From the NCBI RefSeq assembly GCF_036507355.1, contig NZ_AP027878.1: 64,000 nucleotides of DNA, one strand, 5' to 3'. Below, in pieces: positions 23,432-64,000 of the stretch. Position 1 is the stretch's first letter; every line of letters starts with the position of its first letter. The DNA comes from Escherichia coli (lineage in GTDB: Bacteria > Pseudomonadota > Gammaproteobacteria > Enterobacterales > Enterobacteriaceae). The notes beneath the pieces were generated by a model. The model ran no database searches. It saw only the letters and a program-made list of their open reading frames with translations, and was not told the origin of the DNA. Both the position numbers and the translations under genes were made by a program.

Positions 23432-25372
23432 ATGAAAAAAGAAACGATTTTTTCCGAAGTAGAAACGGCTAACAGCAAGCAACTGGCTGTGTTGAAAGCT
23501 AATTTCCCACAGTGTTTTGATAAAAACGGAGCCTTCATTCAAGAAAAATTGCTTGAGATTATTAGAGCATCGGAGGTTGAACTCTCTAAAGAATCATACA
23601 GTTTAAACTGGCTGGGTAAATCTTATGCCCGTTTGTTGGCCAATCTACCACCGAAAACGTTGTTGGCAGAAGATAAAACACATAACCAACAAGAAGAGAA
23701 CAAGAACAGTCAAAACCTGTTAATCAAAGGGGATAACCTCGAAGTATTGAAGCATATGGTTAATGCTTATGCTGAAAAGGTGAATATGATTTACATTGAC
23801 CCACCATACAATACGGGTAAAGATGGATTCGTCTATAACGATGATCGCAAGTTTACACCAGAACAGCTTTCTGAACTGGCAGGTATCGAGCTTGATGAGG
23901 CTAACCGCATACTTGAATTTACCACCAAGGGTTCAAGCAGTCATAGTGCATGGCTGACATTCATTTATCCTCGTCTTTATATTGCACGTGAACTTTTAAA
24001 AGAGGATGGAGTAATATTCATCTCCATAGACGATAACGAAGATAAACAGTTGGGATTATTATGCGACGAAGTATTTGGGCAAGGTAATTTTGTTGCAAAA
24101 CTCCCTACAATCATGAATCTCAAAGGCAATCATGATAACTTTGGCTTTTCAGATACGCATGAATATATATATGTATACGCTAAAAACAAAGATGTTTGTA
24201 GTTTGGGGCAATTCGATATTGATGAAAGTGAAGTTGAAAAAGAGTGGGATGAAGATGAATATGGGCTATTTAAAAGAGCTGATACATTAAAGCGTACTGG
24301 CCAAGATGCTTCTAGAAAATCAAGACCAAAAGGTTGGTTTCCGGTATTCATCAATTCAGAAAATAAGGTTTATGTAACAGATGATGATAAACCTCTTAAC
24401 GAAGATGACTATGTACTTTACCCAGTAAGCCCTACGGGTGAAGAGCTTTCATGGTCGTGGGGAAAGAAAAAAATAAATGATGAGTTTTATAATCTAATAG
24501 TAATAGATATAAAAGATGGTAAAAATATCTATAAAAAACAGCGGCCTGCTCTTGGAGAGCTACCAACTAAAAAGCCAAAATCAATTTGGTATAAACCTGA
24601 ATATAGTACAAGCACGGCGACAACTGAGCTTAAAAATCTTTTAGGTGCAAAATTATTTGAAGGACCAAAACCTGTTCCTCTTATAACCGATCTTGTAAAA
24701 ATAGGAACAAAAAAGGATTCATTAGTTCTTGACTTTTTTGCTGGCTCTGGTACGACAGCAGAAGCTGTTGCATATTTAAATGAAAAAGATTCAGGCTGTA
24801 GGAATTTTATATGCATACAAAAAGATGAAGTTATAAATAAAACAAAGAATGCCTATTCTCTTGGCTATAGATCTATTTTTGAAATAACAAAAAAAAGGAT
24901 ACAGGAGGTATTTAAAAAAAGCACAACCACAAGTGATAATGCGGCTAAAATAGGTTTCAAAGTGATTCATACTATTGATGACTTTAGAGCAAAAGTTGAG
25001 TCTGAACTTACGCTCACTAATCATACATTCTTTGATGATGCGGTATTAACGCCTGAACAGTATGATGCCCTATTGACTACATGGTGTGTATATGATGGTA
25101 GCTTGTTAACAACACCTATTGAAGATGTTGATCTTAGTGGCTATACAGCACACTTTTGCAATGGCCGTCTGTATTTGATTGCACCTAATTTTACTAGCGA
25201 AGCATTGAAAGCGTTGCTCCAAAAGCTGGATTCAGATGAAGATTTTGCCCCAAACAAAGTCGTGTTTTATGGTTGTAACTTTGAAAGTGCAAAACAAAGG
25301 GAGCTTAATGAGGCGCTAAAAAGTTATGCTAACAAAAAATCTATTGAGTTAGATTTAGTGGTAAGGAACTAA
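23432..25372 (+). CDS. mod: Type III restriction-modification methyltransferase Mod (EcoP1I-like)
   Basis: 646 aa from MKKETIF...; IYIDPPYNTG motif IV; AT-rich; directly precedes res. Track ORF starts 23411. Confidence 0.85.
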   Translation: MKKETIFSEVETANSKQLAVLKANFPQCFDKNGAFIQEKLLEIIRASEVELSKESYSLNWLGKSYARLLANLPPKTLLAEDKTHNQQEENKNSQNLLIKGDNLEVLKHMVNAYAEKVNMIYIDPPYNTGKDGFVYNDDRKFTPEQLSELAGIELDEANRILEFTTKGSSSHSAWLTFIYPRLYIARELLKEDGVIFISIDDNEDKQLGLLCDEVFGQGNFVAKLPTIMNLKGNHDNFGFSDTHEYIYVYAKNKDVCSLGQFDIDESEVEKEWDEDEYGLFKRADTLKRTGQDASRKSRPKGWFPVFINSENKVYVTDDDKPLNEDDYVLYPVSPTGEELSWSWGKKKINDEFYNLIVIDIKDGKNIYKKQRPALGELPTKKPKSIWYKPEYSTSTATTELKNLLGAKLFEGPKPVPLITDLVKIGTKKDSLVLDFFAGSGTTAEAVAYLNEKDSGCRNFICIQKDEVINKTKNAYSLGYRSIFEITKKRIQEVFKKSTTTSDNAAKIGFKVIHTIDDFRAKVESELTLTNHTFFDDAVLTPEQYDALLTTWCVYDGSLLTTPIEDVDLSGYTAHFCNGRLYLIAPNFTSEALKALLQKLDSDEDFAPNKVVFYGCNFESAKQRELNEALKSYANKKSIELDLVVRN

Positions 25373-34909: not shown

Positions 34910-36102
34910 TAATCATCATCCCCGTACAGTTTGCGGGTAACTTCTTCGTCTTCCTCCTCGTCTTCGTCCAGATCCTGTTCAAGCCATGCTTCGTTTGATA
35001 TGCCTTCCGCATCGACATCACCATAACCACCTGTATCGACGATATCGGCAATTTCTTCTCTACGATGCTCAATCCACAATGCCGCATCAGCGCGGCGGCT
35101 GGCGGCCCGTTCTCGCGCGATTTTATCCAGATCTTCAAGTGATGGAGCGCCAGATGCTGTTTGGTTTTCCTCATCATCGGTATTGGTCTTAGGAGCACGC
35201 AGATCGGCTTTGATTTGCTCCAGCATCAGGGGCGGCACTTTTCCTCCATGCGCCTCGATGAATTCAGCCGCTTCCAGCACTGACCAGTTATTTTCACGCT
35301 TTCGTTCGTATGCCAGCTTAACAATGCCAGCTTGCCCCATAGATAAAGCGTGCTTTTCCGCCTCCCGGCTTTCTTTTCGATAGTTATTCCGGATGCTGTA
35401 AATGGTGTTGATCAGGCTGCTTATCTGCGCGGAACAGCTGTTTAGCATGCTCGCGATACGGTATTCAGGCGGAGTACCTTCATCATCGTCTTTTTGCTGA
35501 TCGCGCATTTCCTGCACTAGGCGAATACACGTATCCCTGGCGTTCTCCAGCATAAGGAGATGAGAAAGAGACTTTTCCAGAAGAGTGGTTTCCAGAACAT
35601 CGGCCCCGGACCGACGCAACATAGCGCGCGCGGCCTTCCGCGCTTCAACGTTATCTATCAGGTAATCGCCAGCTTCGAATTCAAAGCGTTCACCATCATC
35701 ATCCAGGGTGTCGCGTTCCAGGCGATCACGTAAGGTCCGGTGGGCGCGGGTGATCACGTCATGATCATCTGAACGATCATTTATGCGCTTATTTTGGCGC
35801 TTCGCATTCTCGACTGCGGCACTGACAACGGCATTAACTCTTTGTTTTTCCGCTATTTCAGCCGAAATGTGATCACCTGCATGTTGATCATTAGAGTGAT
35901 CAATGATCATGCTTTTTAGTGGCTTCCTGACTGGCTTATTTGGCTTGCGGCTGTCCGTAGTCCTGGTGTCTTCTTTGAAGGCACGGAGATAACGACGTGC
36001 GGTATTAGGGTTAAGATTAAACTCGGCGGCATACTGTGCGATGGTGTAACCACCATCTCGCGCCAGGCGAGCAAAATTCTTCTTGTGATCGTCCCAGGTC
36101 AC
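34909..36102 (-). CDS. pacA: Terminase small subunit / pac-recognition protein PacA
   Basis: 397 aa; contains the pac site within its coding sequence. Confidence 0.85.
35751..35909. other. pac: pac packaging site (clustered TGATCA elements with Dam GATC sites)
   Basis: TGATCA at 35751, 35762, 35870, 35885, 35897, 35904 and CGATCA at 35774; two clusters about 100 bp apart, span about 160 bp. Confidence 0.75.
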
Positions 36103-56398: not shown

Positions 56399-57044
56399 TT
56401 ATTAACCTCATTACTGGTTGGGAAATAAGGTTGCGGTGCCGGGTGCTTCCCGGTGTCCTTTAGCTGGTTATCCACCGTGGACGGGGAAATAAGGAGAAAT
56501 AATGGACAGATATAACCATTTCCCCGCGTGCGCTTAGCCGCATTCACCGCAACGGAAAGAGCATTCCTGGTGGACCTGTAGATTGGGATATGAACCCGTT
56601 ACAGGAGAATGCTCTTACCTGTTACGTGCTCCGTTTCGTGGAGCTAACGGCGGGTGATCGGGCCGCACCAGACTGGACTTATTTCAGCGTTATGCTCATG
56701 CCAGAGAATCAAACTGTGATGGTCGGTGCTGAACTCCGACACAGGGTTGTAGCAAGCCCCGCAAAGCGCGCACTACTGTAGTTGCGGCACATCAGCCTGT
56801 GCATTCACCACAATGTTGAGAACACTGGTTGTCACGCTGCAACGCAACATTTATTCGTAGATTGGGATATGACCCCGTTACGCCAGTGTTCTCAACGTTG
56901 TAGTGCCGGTTACGGTTCCGGCCAGGCCTCTTCCTCAACGGGGTGTTCTCCATACGGACTACCGTTTATTGGTCGTTCCTGCGGTTTATGTTGTGAAGCC
57001 AGATGCTTATCTTCTGGTTGCTTCAAAGAGCTGCACTTCATCAC

Positions 57045-57128
57045 AACGGTAAGGGTACTTCGTAGGGATTCGAACCCTCTGCCAAGCTCGGCGATCTCCG
57101 ACGTCGCAAAATACCCTTACCTGTTGTG
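57045..57128 (-). ncRNA. tRNA-like structured element (T-arm-like AGGG-TTCGAAT-CCCT inside a long inverted repeat), not a canonical tRNA
   Basis: Minus strand has GGTTCGAATCC T-loop motif but no matching acceptor or anticodon arms; flanked by 17-bp inverted repeat CACAACAGGTAAGGGTA/TACCCTTACCGTTGTG. Confidence 0.35.
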
Positions 57129-57129
57129 C

Positions 57130-57205
57130 TGGTGCCGATTAACGGACTCGAACCGCTGACATCCTGCTTACAAGGCAGGCGCTCTACCAACTGAGCTAAA
57201 CCGGC
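57130..57205 (-). tRNA. tRNA-Thr (anticodon UGU)
   Basis: Minus strand GCCGGTTTAGCTCAGTTGGTAGAGCGCCTGCCTTGTAAGCAGGATGTCAGCGGTTCGAGTCCGTTAATCGGCACCA. Confidence 0.85.
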
Positions 57206-57207
57206 AT

Positions 57208-57283
57208 TGGCGATGGTGGATGGATTTGAACCATCGACCCGTTGATTAACAGTCAACCGCTCTAACCGCTGAGCTACACCATC
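57208..57283 (-). tRNA. tRNA-Asn (anticodon GUU)
   Basis: Minus strand ...GCTCAGCGGTTAGAGCGGTTGACTGTTAATCAAC...GGTTCAAATCC...CCA; two nt from tRNA-Thr. Confidence 0.85.
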
Positions 57284-61568: not shown

Positions 61569-61853
61569 GTGGCAAGTATTGCAACAAAAGACAGCATTTG
61601 TTCGGGGCACGGAGGATTCCCATCCAGGCCTCCTGTAGAGAGTGAACCACTACTTAAAGTCAACGGAGTCGAAGTGTTAGTTGATGGTAAGCAATATGCA
61701 CAGCATACCGATGGAAACAGTACGCACGGTGGGCAAGCTATATCAACCAGGGCATGGTTTACCGTCAATGGTAAAGGGATCGTATGCGTTGGTGACCCTG
61801 TTTCATGCGGATCTACCGTAGCGTCCGGAGACGGCCTGGTTCAGGTAAGTTAG
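61569..61853 (+). CDS. Hypothetical small protein
   Basis: 94-aa ORF divergent from uhr. Confidence 0.35.
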   Translation: MASIATKDSICSGHGGFPSRPPVESEPLLKVNGVEVLVDGKQYAQHTDGNSTHGGQAISTRAWFTVNGKGIVCVGDPVSCGSTVASGDGLVQVS

Positions 61854-62650
61854 GAGATATCATGCTGGAAAAAGACTACCAGTTATCCGCATATAAAAAA
61901 TTGGCCGCCGCCGGTGGGATGAAAACACCTGGTGCCATAACATCGGCACGAAACAGTGCTAACACGGCAAAACAGCTTGCAGAAGAATTGATCGGATTAA
62001 TTTTGGATACAATTGTCTATCCCGACACTATTACCAGCTATGTTTCAACGATCAGAACAACCACAACCGGCTTAACGAACATTGGAGAACTGGCAACTAA
62101 GCACGCGGACCTGTTGGCTGGTTATGCAGATCTGTCAATGCTGCTTCAACTCGATATTGGTTGGGATGTTTACTGCCGTGCTAATGAGCGAGAAGTATCA
62201 GAACTGCCGATCTCTATTGCCATTGGTGATGTGACTATTACTAAATCGCTTGAGGACGCTGTAAACGCGCTTAATACATCAAGTTTAGTCGCTGCTATGG
62301 GGGAGATTAACCAGACCCTTAACACTGGCTCAGGAAGCTCGTCAGGCTCTGGTTCAGGCGGCGGCACTGCCACTCCCCCACCAGCACTAACAGAAGAGCA
62401 AATTGAATCTCTGAAAGTAGCAACTGAACAGTTTGAGGTTGTTTTCAACCAGACAACAGCGCCCACAACTGCGTTACAACAGCAGTATGAACGAGCGAAT
62501 GAAAGCGCCAACGTAGCCATAACTGCTTATAACCATGCTATCGGTACCGCGCTTGCGGAAGCATCAGCAAATAAGGCCAGCACAGCCAGCGCAGTTGCCG
62601 CTTTGGTTCCTGATTCTGTTCTTGATGAATTAAACAAAGCGGCACAGTAA
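61805..62650 (+). CDS. Hypothetical protein with a Ser/Gly linker (SGSSSGSGSGGG)
   Basis: 281-aa ORF. Confidence 0.45.
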   Translation: MRIYRSVRRRPGSGKLGDIMLEKDYQLSAYKKLAAAGGMKTPGAITSARNSANTAKQLAEELIGLILDTIVYPDTITSYVSTIRTTTTGLTNIGELATKHADLLAGYADLSMLLQLDIGWDVYCRANEREVSELPISIAIGDVTITKSLEDAVNALNTSSLVAAMGEINQTLNTGSGSSSGSGSGGGTATPPPALTEEQIESLKVATEQFEVVFNQTTAPTTALQQQYERANESANVAITAYNHAIGTALAEASANKASTASAVAALVPDSVLDELNKAAQ

Positions 62651-62662
62651 CAAAGGACTTCA

Positions 62663-63112
62663 TTGATAATTTTTCTTCAGGAGGAAGACATGTCATTCTT
62701 TTCTACGTTAAAAACAGCTTTGTCTTTGAAGGAGAAACTTGCTGCTACTGGTGTTCTTGTTCTGATTTGCGCACTTGTTGGTGCTGGGTTTGCATGGGAA
62801 CGTCATCAGCTAAAGCAAGCCATGGAGAAAATTGGCAGTCTTGATCAGGCTGTTAAGGAACGTGATAAGTCAATAATGGATCTTAACCAGGCCATTGAGA
62901 CGATGAACAAAGCAGAGCAACATTTTCACAGCCAGGAAGTGAAAAATGAATCAGAACAAGCCAAGTATGCTGACAGGCAAATGGAACGAAAAGCTGAAGT
63001 TCAGAAACAACTGGTTGCGGCGGGTAATGTTCGCCAGCGTATTCCTGCTGACACTCAGCGGTTGCTCCGGGAGTCGATCAGCGAATTTAACGCCGACGCC
63101 GACAAAGGTTAA
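62663..63112 (+). CDS. Membrane-anchored coiled-coil protein, i-spanin (Rz)-like
   Basis: 149 aa; N-terminal TM segment VLVLICALVGAGFAW, coiled coil, C-terminal RIPADTQRLLRES resembling Rz C-termini. Confidence 0.45.
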   Translation: MIIFLQEEDMSFFSTLKTALSLKEKLAATGVLVLICALVGAGFAWERHQLKQAMEKIGSLDQAVKERDKSIMDLNQAIETMNKAEQHFHSQEVKNESEQAKYADRQMERKAEVQKQLVAAGNVRQRIPADTQRLLRESISEFNADADKG

Positions 63113-63278
63113 CCACCCTGCCCCCAAAAGTGCATTTATGTGCAGGATGCCAGAATTTAGCAGTGAATATTTTGATGATCTGCCAGCCTATATCCTTGAT
63201 ACAGAAACGATGCTGAAGGGGATTAACAGGAAGAATCGCAACGTTAATGATTACAACCGCGCTATCAGCGGTAACTAA
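63027..63278 (+). CDS. Lipoprotein, o-spanin (Rz1)-like, overlapping the 3' end of the preceding gene
   Basis: From internal ATG: MFASVFLLTLSGC lipobox then Pro-rich LTPTPTKVNHPAP; track ORF begins 62946. Confidence 0.4.
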   Translation: MFASVFLLTLSGCSGSRSANLTPTPTKVNHPAPKSAFMCRMPEFSSEYFDDLPAYILDTETMLKGINRKNRNVNDYNRAISGN

Positions 63279-63289
63279 AAGGGATTTTT

Positions 63290-63682
63290 ATGTCTGATAA
63301 AGTAACAGTAAAGCAAACTATCAACAAAGCGACTTCAATCTACAAAATTGAGCACATCACTGTTGGCAAGCCAGGATCTGAACAATACCGTCATGCTTTC
63401 GAGCTTGCCGATCAGCTTGGTTTAAAACACCCGGATTGCATCGAGCATGTATTTCCGACCTATGCTGATGAGCAATGTACTCATGTTCTTACCGAAGAGG
63501 ATTTTTTCAGCACTGAAGAACGAGAAGGCGTTGATCGCTGCATTGGTGTGATTTGTTCTTCGGTAAGTGATGAGTTATTCCCTAATGTGCCTGAATATGG
63601 TGGTATTGGATACCAATTCCTGTACGAGGGCGATGAGCTTAAATGCTATGAACATGGTCTTCTCATCGAAAGCGTAGAATAA
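63290..63682 (+). CDS. Hypothetical protein just upstream of oriR
   Basis: 130-aa ORF. Confidence 0.45.
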   Translation: MSDKVTVKQTINKATSIYKIEHITVGKPGSEQYRHAFELADQLGLKHPDCIEHVFPTYADEQCTHVLTEEDFFSTEEREGVDRCIGVICSSVSDELFPNVPEYGGIGYQFLYEGDELKCYEHGLLIESVE

Positions 63683-63723
63683 TACGACTGCCTTCCAACC
63701 GGCTACGTTGGCCGGTTTTTCAC

Positions 63724-63742
63724 TTATCCACATTATCCACTG
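63724..63742. promoter_or_regulatory. Tandem DnaA boxes of plasmid origin oriR
   Basis: TTATCCACA and TTATCCACT. Confidence 0.7.
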
Positions 63743-63744
63743 GA

Positions 63745-63802
63745 TAGATCCAATAATCAGGTCCATACAGATCCCAATTAGATCCATATAGATCCCTGAT
63801 CG
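63745..63802. repeat. GATC-containing heptamer repeats of oriR (Dam methylation sites)
   Basis: Five GATC sites at about 11-bp spacing: AGATCC, AGATCC, AGATCC, AGATCC, TGATCG. Confidence 0.7.
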
Positions 63803-63840
63803 TTGCAGGCCGTGCCACGTCTGGCTTAGAAGTGTATCGC

Positions 63841-63945
63841 GATGTGTGCTGGAGGGAAAACGATGTGTGCTGGAGGGATAAAAATGTGTGCTGACGGGTT
63901 GCTAATGTGTGCTGGCGGGATATAGGATGTGTGCTGACGGGAAAG
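63841..63945. repeat. incC: Five 21-bp-spaced iterons (RepA-binding incC repeats of oriR)
   Basis: GATGTGTGCTGGAGGGAAAAC and four close variants in direct tandem; repA would lie beyond the window edge. Confidence 0.8.
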
Positions 63946-64000
63946 CCTGGGTAGTTATCACCACTTATAAAAACTATCCACACAATTCGGAAAAAGTAAT

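What the first reader, a model, noticed from the sequence alone, without database searches (positions are those of the whole stretch)
63720..64000. Window ends in the plasmid replication origin (DnaA boxes, five Dam heptamers, five iterons)
The ordered arrangement matches the P1 oriR architecture, so repA should follow immediately to the right. The spanin-like pair and the hypothetical genes at 61.5-63.7 kb are thus origin-proximal.
Basis: partly seen in the sequence, partly recalled or inferred. Interest (0 to 1): 0.25.

Follow-up and report, generated by a model that had tools for sequence, protein, structure and literature searches.

The report
Phage P1 plasmid origin oriR

Summary
Confirmed, and already known. 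Window 63703-63944 is colinear with the curated oriR of phage P1 (NC_005856), with 4 mismatches and no gaps in 318 aligned bases. All the parts are present in the canonical order:
- two abutting DnaA boxes (63724-63741);
- five 7-bp repeats and five GATC Dam sites in an A+T-rich stretch (63742-63804);
- a G+C-rich spacer (63805-63825);
- five 19-bp RepA iterons (incC, 63841-63944) spaced 21, 21, 21 and 22 bp, enclosing the repA promoter;
- three weaker DnaA boxes in the repA leader (63955-63982).

The window stops on the base before the repA start codon. In P1, P7 and the closest IncY plasmids (1 mismatch in 2001 bp), the next bases are ATGAATCAA, the start of repA. That RepA is 286 aa and 100% identical to P1 RepA. 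Nine incA iterons and parAB follow it. Many database records start at that ATG, so the window is probably the tail of a circular record rotated to begin at repA.

The "spanin-like pair" is P1 ppfA/mlp, a predicted but untested Rz/Rz1 equivalent.

One small correction: heptamers and Dam sites do not correspond one to one. Four heptamers carry GATC, one is AGGTCCA, and the fifth GATC lies in TGATCGT.

The only private feature is a C>T change at 63813 in the spacer.

The parts
63697..63722 (+). Terminator-like hairpin and T-run after upfA. The left edge of the annotated oriR (63703) lies inside it.
   Evidence: Terminator scan: 9-bp stem AACCGGCTA/TGGCCGGTT followed by TTTTC. P1 rep_origin maps to L001 5204-5445, which is window 63703-63944.
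63703..63944 (+). oriR, the plasmid (prophage) replication origin, complete as delimited in the P1 and P7 records.
   Evidence: Gap-free alignment to NC_005856 oriR; 2 of the 4 mismatches in the 318 aligned bases fall inside oriR (63813, 63934), the other two outside it (63690, 63947). Curated rep_origin feature in P1 and P7.
63724..63741 (+). Two abutting DnaA boxes, TTATCCACA and TTATCCACT.
   Evidence: Pattern search. P1 protein_bind DnaA at L001 5225-5242. Identical in P1, P7 and Cronobacter phage JK004.
63742..63804 (+). A+T-rich origin core (39.7% G+C). Five 7-bp repeats AG[A/G]TCC[A/C] at 63746, 63759, 63769, 63780 and 63790. Five Dam GATC sites at 63747, 63770, 63781, 63791 and 63798.
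   Evidence: The five 'Dam methylation sites in the region of incC' of the P1 record map onto exactly these GATCs.
63805..63825 (+). G+C-rich spacer (76% G+C) between the core and the iterons. It carries the private C>T change at 63813.
   Evidence: Composition. C at this column in P1, P7, JK004, SJ46 and pBS74R-D_2. No exact match to the origin in 5,426 E. coli genomes.
63841..63944 (+). incC: five direct 19-bp RepA-binding iterons (63841-63859, 63862-63880, 63883-63901, 63904-63922, 63926-63944).
   Evidence: P1 'RepA binding iteron of incC region, copies 14-10' map to the same positions. Iteron 5 has C at 63934 as in P7 and JK004, where P1 has T.
63899..63928 (+). repA promoter PrepA inside the iteron array: -35 TTGCTA (63899-63904), 18-bp spacer, -10 TAGGAT (63923-63928).
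   Evidence: Position and sequence identical to the annotated sigma-70 PrepA of P1. The generic promoter scan does not pick it up, because it matches only 8 of 12 consensus positions.
63955..63982 (+). Right-hand group of three weaker DnaA-box-like 9-mers in the repA leader: TTATCACCA, TTATAAAAA, CTATCCACA.
   Evidence: Scan with 2, 2 and 1 mismatches to TTWTNCACA. Direct repeat D4 with the left boxes. That P1 has three boxes on this side is from memory (Abeles et al. 1990, cited) and is not annotated in the record.
63983..64000 (+). Last 18 bases of the repA leader. The repA ATG would be the next base, beyond the window.
   Evidence: Alignment A1: P1 and pBS74R-D_2 continue with ATGAATCAA, and pHeN100_02 begins with it.
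63290..63682 (+). upfA (130 aa, function unknown), the last gene before the origin.
   Evidence: ORF list; P1 annotation; phrog_1453, unknown function.
62690..63112 (+). ppfA, an Rz-like i-spanin candidate (140 aa from the ATG annotated in P1; N-terminal membrane helix).
   Evidence: phrog_89 'Rz-like spanin', E = 3e-25. Weak match to TIGR03495 LysB. P1 annotation. PMC9025707.
62946..63278 (+). mlp, an Rz1-like o-spanin candidate (lipobox LSGC). It overlaps the 3' end of ppfA in another frame.
   Evidence: phrog_30284 'Rz-like spanin', E = 9e-78. The P1 record calls it a membrane lipoprotein precursor / Rz-like spanin.
61569..62650 (+). upfC (PAAR-motif protein, 61569-61853) and upfB (61805-62650, function unknown).

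Best explanation
Window 63703-63944, with its leader up to 64000, is the oriR/incC origin of the low-copy plasmid replicon of a P1-like (IncY) plasmid-prophage.

The mechanism below is taken from what has been established experimentally for P1. It is inferred here from near-identity of sequence and was not tested.
- Monomeric RepA binds the five phased 19-bp iterons. RepA would be encoded directly to the right of the window and is activated by DnaK/DnaJ/GrpE or ClpA.
- Host DnaA binds the two tandem boxes at the left edge. The weaker boxes on the right can substitute.
- Together with HU, these proteins open the A+T-rich heptamer region between them, and the host helicase is loaded there.
- The five GATC sites in that region must be Dam-methylated for firing. 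When hemimethylated after replication, they are sequestered by SeqA.
- The repA promoter lies inside iterons 3-5, so RepA binding to the origin also represses repA.
- The nine incA iterons downstream of repA titrate RepA and pair with the origin ('handcuffing'), holding the copy number near one per chromosome.
For: - Identity to P1: 98.6% over 1001 bp to three P1 records, with curated oriR, incC, DnaA and Dam features under the match. The origin itself aligns without gaps, with 4 mismatches in 318.
- Each element maps base for base onto a curated P1 or P7 feature.
- The iterons are far above chance: 5 against 0.38 expected.
- The GATC cluster is the densest in the window.
- The architecture is kept in a relative only about 83% identical over the aligned flanks, Cronobacter phage JK004: tandem DnaA boxes unchanged, heptamer/GATC core partly kept (only two GATC sites remain), five iterons, then a gene the size of repA.
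- In relatives with 1 mismatch in 2001 bp, repA starts at the base after the window end. That RepA is 286/286 identical to P1 RepA and has Rep3 WH1 and WH2 domains; nine further iterons and parAB follow. PLSDB types these replicons as IncY.
- The same origin is found in 361 of 5,426 complete E. coli genomes, with 357 of 368 places on plasmids.
- Mechanistic statements come from reviews read here: DnaA plus RepA opening, HU, chaperones, movable DnaA boxes and iteron phasing (PMC5043065, PMC4980987). The replicon layout parSAB-incA-repA-incC-oriR is in PMC6906374.
Against: - Nothing in the sequence contradicts this reading.
- repA and incA of this particular molecule lie outside the window and were not seen.
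- The window's exact sequence is in none of the collections searched. The best matches are 310/311 and 2000/2001.
- There is one private C>T at 63813, in a spacer position that is C in all five other origins aligned. Its effect is unknown.
- The role of Dam, SeqA and the heptamers was not read in a primary paper here. Only the titles of Abeles & Austin 1987, Brendler et al. 1991 and Abeles et al. 1993 were seen in reference lists, so the details are from memory.
- DnaA-box-like 9-mers as a class are not enriched over chance in the window.
Confidence: 0.97

Rival explanations
1. The region is protein-coding on the minus strand. Two open frames cross it: 63720-63983 (87 aa) and 63575-63787 (70 aa).
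For: Both appear in the mechanical ORF list. The 70-aa frame matches phrog_9629 (unknown function, 70 aa) at E = 1.7e-51.
Against: - The 87-aa frame has no PHROG match. It is just the iteron array read through, giving a repeated ..QHT.. peptide.
- The 70-aa frame runs antisense to the 3' end of upfA, then through the terminator, the DnaA boxes and the heptamers.
- It is not kept in JK004, where only a 34-aa frame remains, while upfA on the sense strand is kept.
- In SJ46 it has a different N-terminus.
- Neither the curated P1 and P7 records nor PGAP annotate a gene there.
- The PHROG is most simply a family of automated gene calls on near-identical P1-like genomes.
Confidence: 0.01
2. The origin is a dead or orphaned remnant in this molecule. 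Either repA is missing or broken beyond the window, or the private C>T at 63813 inactivates the origin and the element is maintained by another replicon.
For: - repA is not in the window.
- The C>T at 63813 has no exact match in 72,556 plasmids or 5,426 E. coli genomes.
- P1-like elements are mosaic and some are cointegrates with other plasmids (PMC6906374).
- 11 of the 368 places with this origin are chromosomal.
Against: - All other functional positions are intact: the DnaA boxes, all five GATC sites, all five iterons and both promoter hexamers.
- The window ends exactly where many complete circular IncY records end, and those records start with an intact repA.
- From memory of Brendler et al. 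1991 (not read here), the G+C-rich stretch tolerates base changes as long as its length is kept. Here the length is unchanged.
Confidence: 0.02
3. The repeats cluster by chance, or this is another kind of origin, such as the P1 lytic origin oriL or an oriC-like element.
For: DnaA boxes together with a GATC cluster are also hallmarks of oriC. Taken alone, DnaA-like 9-mers and AGATCCM heptamers are not over-represented across the whole window.
Against: - Five iterons against 0.38 expected.
- Base-for-base colinearity with the experimentally defined oriR.
- oriL is not annotated at this locus. The annotated stretch around it shows only oriR, repA, incA and par, and the lytic replication genes (kilA, repL) are annotated at about 50 kb of the P1 record.
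- No Rfam family matches.
Confidence: 0

Closest known systems
oriR/incC of bacteriophage P1 (NC_005856 62688-62929; original sequences K02380 and M37080); IncY replicon
   Same: Order, number, spacing and sequence of all elements: 2 left DnaA boxes, 5 heptamers, 5 GATC sites, a G+C-rich spacer, 5 iterons, PrepA inside the iterons, right-hand DnaA boxes, and an 18-base leader ending at the repA ATG. There are 314/318 identical bases and no indels.
   Different: Four substitutions:
- 63690 G for C, upstream of the origin.
- 63813 T for C, in the spacer; private to this window.
- 63934 C for T, in iteron 5. This brings the iteron back to the consensus seen in P7 and JK004.
- 63947 C for T, in the leader, as in P7.
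The nearest relatives pair this replicon with P7-type rather than P1-type parAB.
oriR of phage P7 (NC_050152 65242-65483) and IncY plasmids such as pBS74R-D_2, pHeN100_02 and pDETEC74
   Same: Same architecture. The IncY plasmids differ from the window by 1 base in 2001. They share C at 63934 and 63947. RepA is identical in P1, P7 and these plasmids.
   Different: P7 differs at a handful of positions, for example in the terminator loop, at heptamer-region column 63760, and in iteron 2 (GGAGGG to GGCGGG).
SJ46-type replicon of P1-like phage-plasmids (Salmonella phage SJ46, RCS47, Ro157c2YLVW)
   Same: Same upstream genes, a similar pair of DnaA boxes, GATC heptamers and G+C-rich spacer. Nucleotide homology runs to about window 63826.
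   Different: The iterons are unrelated: five copies of ..TTGACTGTACGCG.. at a spacing of about 21-22 bp. RepA is longer (306 aa as annotated). The window does not belong to this subtype.
Iteron plasmid origins in general (F oriS/RepE, pSC101, R6K gamma, RK2 oriV) and Vibrio cholerae Chr2 ori2
   Same: Phased direct iterons bound by a winged-helix Rep monomer, a DnaA box or boxes, an A+T-rich opening region, autorepression and handcuffing. Dam dependence is shared with V. cholerae ori2 (PMC5043065, PMC2865523).
   Different: No sequence similarity. These are working analogues rather than the same family at the DNA level.
Lambda Rz/Rz1 two-component spanins (for the neighbouring ppfA/mlp pair)
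   Same: An inner-membrane-anchored protein gene overlapped out of frame by a small lipoprotein gene. Both match PHROG 'Rz-like spanin' families. Both are listed as the P1 spanins in PMC9025707.
   Different: The pair is overlapped rather than fully embedded. It lies in an operon unlinked to the P1 holin and endolysin genes. Its function is experimentally unverified.

Membership tests
P1-type (IncY) oriR / RepA iteron replicon | Nucleotide homology and colinearity with the experimentally defined P1 oriR | tested here: met
   314/318 identical with no gaps. 98.6% over 1001 bp.
P1-type (IncY) oriR / RepA iteron replicon | Two tandem DnaA boxes at the left edge of the origin | tested here: met
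   TTATCCACA and TTATCCACT at 63724-63741, on the P1 DnaA protein_bind feature.
P1-type (IncY) oriR / RepA iteron replicon | A+T-rich core with five 7-bp repeats and five Dam GATC sites | tested here: met
   Heptamers at 63746, 63759, 63769, 63780 and 63790. GATC at 63747, 63770, 63781, 63791 and 63798, matching P1 Dam sites 5 to 1.
P1-type (IncY) oriR / RepA iteron replicon | G+C-rich spacer of fixed length between the core and the iterons | tested here: met
   63805-63825, 76% G+C, same length as in P1 and P7, with one private C>T at 63813.
P1-type (IncY) oriR / RepA iteron replicon | Five direct 19-bp iterons (incC) of the GATGTGTGCTGGAGGGAAA type, phased at about two helical turns | tested here: met
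   Five copies, spaced 21, 21, 21 and 22. 0 of 100 shuffles reach 5.
P1-type (IncY) oriR / RepA iteron replicon | repA promoter embedded in the iterons (the basis of autoregulation) | tested here: met
   TTGCTA, 18 bp, TAGGAT at 63899-63928, identical to the annotated P1 PrepA. Promoter activity itself was not tested.
P1-type (IncY) oriR / RepA iteron replicon | repA (Rep3-type initiator, 286 aa) immediately downstream, followed by the nine-iteron incA array, in elements that carry this origin | tested here: met
   In P1, P7, pBS74R-D_2, pHeN100_02 and pDETEC74, repA starts at the base corresponding to window 64001. RepA is 100% identical to P1 RepA. Nine further iterons follow, 3 forward and 6 reverse.
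P1-type (IncY) oriR / RepA iteron replicon | repA and incA present in this very molecule | not testable with these tools
   The window ends at the base before the ATG, and the exact source record is in none of the collections searched.
P1-type (IncY) oriR / RepA iteron replicon | Function: RepA-, DnaA- and Dam-dependent replication, and IncY incompatibility | not testable with these tools
   Needs experiments. PLSDB types the nearest relatives as IncY from sequence only.
SJ46-type P1-like replicon | Iterons of the ..TTGACTGTACGCG.. type and the longer SJ46 RepA | tested here: not met
   The window's iterons are of the P1 type. Homology with SJ46 stops at about 63826.
Two-component spanin (Rz/Rz1-like), for ppfA/mlp | An i-spanin with an N-terminal membrane helix, an o-spanin with a lipobox Cys, and genes overlapping in different frames | tested here: met
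   - PpfA has the helix LAATGVLVLICALVGAGFAW.
- Mlp has the lipobox LLTLSGC.
- The genes overlap at 62946-63112.
- PHROG Rz-like spanin matches at 3e-25 and 9e-78.
- Lysis function is unverified (PMC9025707).

The most novel reading that the evidence does not exclude
The single private substitution in the origin, C>T at 63813 in the otherwise invariant G+C-rich spacer, could change origin firing, copy number or incompatibility behaviour relative to canonical P1. So could the mosaic of a P1/P7 RepA-oriR with (by inference from relatives) a P7-type partition system. If so, this would be a natural origin variant rather than a neutral polymorphism or a sequencing error.
Probability: 0.03. Interest if true: 0.12.

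Novelty: already known. Interest (0 to 1): 0.04.

Why it matters
It matters only for annotation. It identifies the window as the tail of a P1-like IncY plasmid-prophage and fixes the strand and phase of the replicon: oriR, then repA, incA, parAB and parS to the right. It also shows that the window boundary is an artefact of rotating a circular record to start at repA.

P1 oriR has been one of the best-characterised iteron origins since the 1980s. This copy occurs nearly unchanged in about 7% of complete E. coli genomes. Nothing here would surprise a specialist or open a new question.

Tried and rejected
- Source record. I searched for the exact record so as to read past base 64000, in PLSDB and in complete E. 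coli genomes. No identical record exists. The best are 2000/2001 and 310/311, and the first 25 kb is at most 93% covered. The rightward extension therefore rests on near-identical relatives.
- Statistics on DnaA boxes and AGATCCM heptamers over the whole window. Neither is enriched globally. Only their local clustering and the homology carry weight.
- Generic sigma-70 scan. It does not detect PrepA, which matches 8 of 12 consensus positions. The promoter is assigned by identity to the P1 annotation only.
- Coding potential on the minus strand. The 87-aa frame has no PHROG family. The 70-aa frame matches phrog_9629 but is not conserved in JK004. Both were rejected as genes.
- Rfam scan of 63200-64000 on both strands at E <= 1: nothing.
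- NCBIfam gave no hit for RepA, UpfA, Mlp or UpfB. Pfam places RepA in Rep3 (WH1 above the gathering score, WH2 just below it).
- Primary P1 papers could not be opened: Lobocka 2004 (PMC523184) and Abeles 1990 (PMC213265). Details of the heptamer and Dam/SeqA work, and of the three right-hand DnaA boxes, are from memory plus reference lists and reviews.

Full report
What is in the sequence. Downstream of the upfA stop codon (63680-63682), window 63683-64000 contains the following, in order:
- a hairpin and T-run terminator (63697-63722);
- two abutting DnaA boxes, TTATCCACA and TTATCCACT (63724-63741);
- a 63-bp A+T-rich stretch (39.7% G+C against 47.6% for the whole window) holding five AG[A/G]TCC[A/C] heptamers and five GATC sites;
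- a 21-bp spacer of 76% G+C;
- five direct 19-bp repeats of GATGTGTGCTGGAGGGAAA type at 63841, 63862, 63883, 63904 and 63926;
- a 56-bp leader with three weaker DnaA-box-like 9-mers.

Is it more than chance? The iterons are unambiguous: 5 matches against 0.38 expected, and 0 of 100 shuffles reach 5. The GATC cluster, five sites in 55 bp, is the densest in the window and is reached in 6 of 300 Markov simulations. The only comparable GATC clusters, at 35724-35905, are the P1 pac site. DnaA-like 9-mers and the heptamer consensus are not over-represented across the window as a whole. On their own they would prove nothing; their arrangement and the homology do.

Identity. Megablast of 63000-64000 finds phage P1 (NC_005856, AF234172, AF234173) at 98.6% over the full length. 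It also finds P7 at 96.8%, and the original mini-P1 sequence K02380 at 97.3% (query bases 6-1001). The curated P1 record annotates, under the match, the following features:
- rep_origin oriR;
- the DnaA binding site;
- Dam methylation sites 1-5;
- incC with RepA iterons 14-10;
- PrepA with its -35 and -10 hexamers inside the iterons;
- repA starting at the base that would be window 64001.
The conversion is window coordinate = L001 coordinate + 58499, and every element found independently falls on its P1 counterpart. A gap-free alignment shows 4 differences in 318 bases: 63690, 63813, 63934 and 63947.

The window ends on ...GGAAAAAGTAAT. P1 and pBS74R-D_2 continue with ATGAATCAA, the start of repA, and in P7 repA is annotated at the same position. 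Several complete circular IncY plasmid records end at exactly the window's last base and start with repA at position 1. These include pHeN100_02, pDETEC74 and many others. The window is therefore most simply the last 64 kb of a circular record that was rotated to begin at repA. This is an inference, because the exact record is in none of the collections. In pBS74R-D_2, which has one mismatch to the window in 2001 bp, several things hold:
- RepA is 286/286 identical to P1 RepA and also to P7 RepA.
- It carries Rep3 WH1 and WH2 domains.
- It is followed by nine more iterons, three forward and six reverse, which is the incA arrangement annotated in P7.
- parA and parB come next.
It cannot be checked on the window itself.

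Conservation as evidence of function. In Cronobacter phage JK004, only about 83% identical over the flanks, the tandem DnaA boxes are unchanged and the heptamer/GATC core is only partly kept (two GATC sites remain). Five iterons of the same type are present, followed by an 861-bp gene at the repA position. In the SJ46 group of P1-like elements the left half of the origin is kept (DnaA boxes, heptamers, G+C-rich spacer). From about window 63826 onward, however, the iterons and repA are replaced by an unrelated set. This shows the modular build of the origin: a host-factor half and an initiator-specific half.

How it works. This is taken from knowledge of P1 and not tested here. RepA monomers are produced from dimers by DnaK/DnaJ/GrpE or ClpA. 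They bind the phased iterons. DnaA bound at the flanking boxes initiates opening of the A+T-rich region, and RepA greatly facilitates this. HU is needed for opening in vivo. [quoted passage not shown] The dependence on Dam methylation of the GATC sites, SeqA binding to the hemimethylated core, and the tolerance of the G+C-rich spacer to base changes but not length changes are from memory of Abeles & Austin 1987, Brendler et al. 1991 and Abeles et al. 1993. Only their titles were seen. Autorepression follows from PrepA lying inside iterons 3-5. Copy control by incA titration and handcuffing is noted in the P1 repA annotation.

Neighbouring genes. 61569-63682 encodes P1 upfC (PAAR motif), upfB, ppfA, mlp and upfA. 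ppfA and mlp overlap out of frame, match PHROG 'Rz-like spanin' families, and are described as the unverified spanin genes of P1 (PMC9025707). That paper labels ppfA the o-spanin and mlp the i-spanin, but the sequences indicate the reverse: PpfA has the N-terminal membrane helix and Mlp has the lipobox LSGC.

Rivals. Two minus-strand open frames cross the origin. One has no PHROG family match. The other matches a PHROG of unknown function but is broken in JK004 and is not annotated in curated records, so it is best seen as a propagated gene-call artefact. No Rfam family matches. A dead or orphaned origin cannot be excluded formally without the downstream sequence. It is unlikely, since every known functional position is intact and the window ends where intact relatives start repA.

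Verdict. This is the canonical P1/IncY oriR, present nearly unchanged in 361 of 5,426 complete E. coli genomes. It is already known and of low interest. The only private feature is a C>T at 63813 in the G+C-rich spacer, which has no exact counterpart in the collections searched.

Noticed in passing
window 64000 (window end): The window's last base is the base before the repA ATG. Many circular IncY plasmid records end at this same base and start with repA. The window boundary therefore reflects a record rotated to start at repA, not a biological edge.
   Followed up: yes
window 63813: C>T in the G+C-rich spacer of oriR. The position is C in P1, P7, JK004, SJ46 and the closest plasmids. There is no exact match to the origin in 5,426 E. 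coli genomes or in PLSDB. It could be a private variant or a sequencing error.
   Followed up: partly
window 63683-63826 against L008 2813-2950 (SJ46): SJ46, RCS47 and Ro157c2YLVW-type P1-like elements share the upstream genes and the left half of the origin (DnaA boxes, heptamers, G+C-rich spacer). From about 63826 they switch to unrelated iterons (..TTGACTGTACGCG.., five copies) and a longer RepA. The origin is modular, with the recombination joint between the core and the iterons.
   Followed up: partly
window 63575-63787, minus strand: A 70-aa antisense ORF covers the upfA 3' end, the terminator, the DnaA boxes and the heptamers. It matches phrog_9629 (unknown function) at 1.7e-51 but is broken in JK004. 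It is probably a PHROG family built from spurious gene calls.
   Followed up: yes
window 35724-35905: Two GATC clusters (35724-35775 and 35871-35905) are the only others with at least 4 GATC in 60 bp. The stretch is 99.5% identical to the P1 pacA region that contains the pac cleavage site, so this is the Dam-regulated packaging site.
   Followed up: yes
window about 57031-57054: Relative to all the closest plasmids, the window lacks about 196 bp just upstream of the tRNA-Thr/tRNA-Asn pair. The relatives have 23-nt direct repeats (TTCATCACAACGGTAAGAGCACT) spaced 233 and 196 bp apart there, which suggests a repeat-mediated deletion or a copy-number difference.
   Followed up: partly
window 55623-55698, 57130-57205, 57208-57283 (minus strand): Three tRNA genes, as in P1. 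ARAGORN calls the CAT-anticodon one tRNA-Met, while PGAP annotates it as tRNA-Ile in the relative pBS74R-D_2.
   Followed up: no
window 24180-24183 and 1205-31830: The window is colinear with P1 31836-1 (reverse complement). It lacks the IS5 of the sequenced P1 mod749::IS5 strain. It aligns straight through the IS1 between isaA and isaB. It carries res-mod (EcoPI) at 99.97% identity. Window 1-1204 has no match in P1 1-50000, with divergence starting inside cin.
   Followed up: partly
L002 7762-9929 (pBS74R-D_2, beyond the window): The nearest relatives combine a RepA identical to that of P1 and P7 with P7-type partition genes. ParA is 100% and ParB 99.4% identical to P7, but only 58% and 43% identical to P1. 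This is a mosaic of the replication and partition modules.
   Followed up: yes
window 62690-63278 (ppfA/mlp): PMC9025707 calls ppfA the o-spanin and mlp the i-spanin. The sequences indicate the opposite: PpfA has an N-terminal membrane helix and Mlp has the lipobox LSGC. Other annotations start the o-spanin at an internal ATG (43-44 aa in SJ46 and JK004) rather than using the 110-aa frame.
   Followed up: partly
window 61569-61853 (upfC): UpfC, two genes upstream of the spanin pair, is a PAAR-motif protein (Pfam PF05488 E = 8.5e-6; NCBIfam T6SS PAAR E = 4.5e-9; phrog_281). It is probably a tail-spike tip rather than a plasmid-maintenance gene.
   Followed up: no
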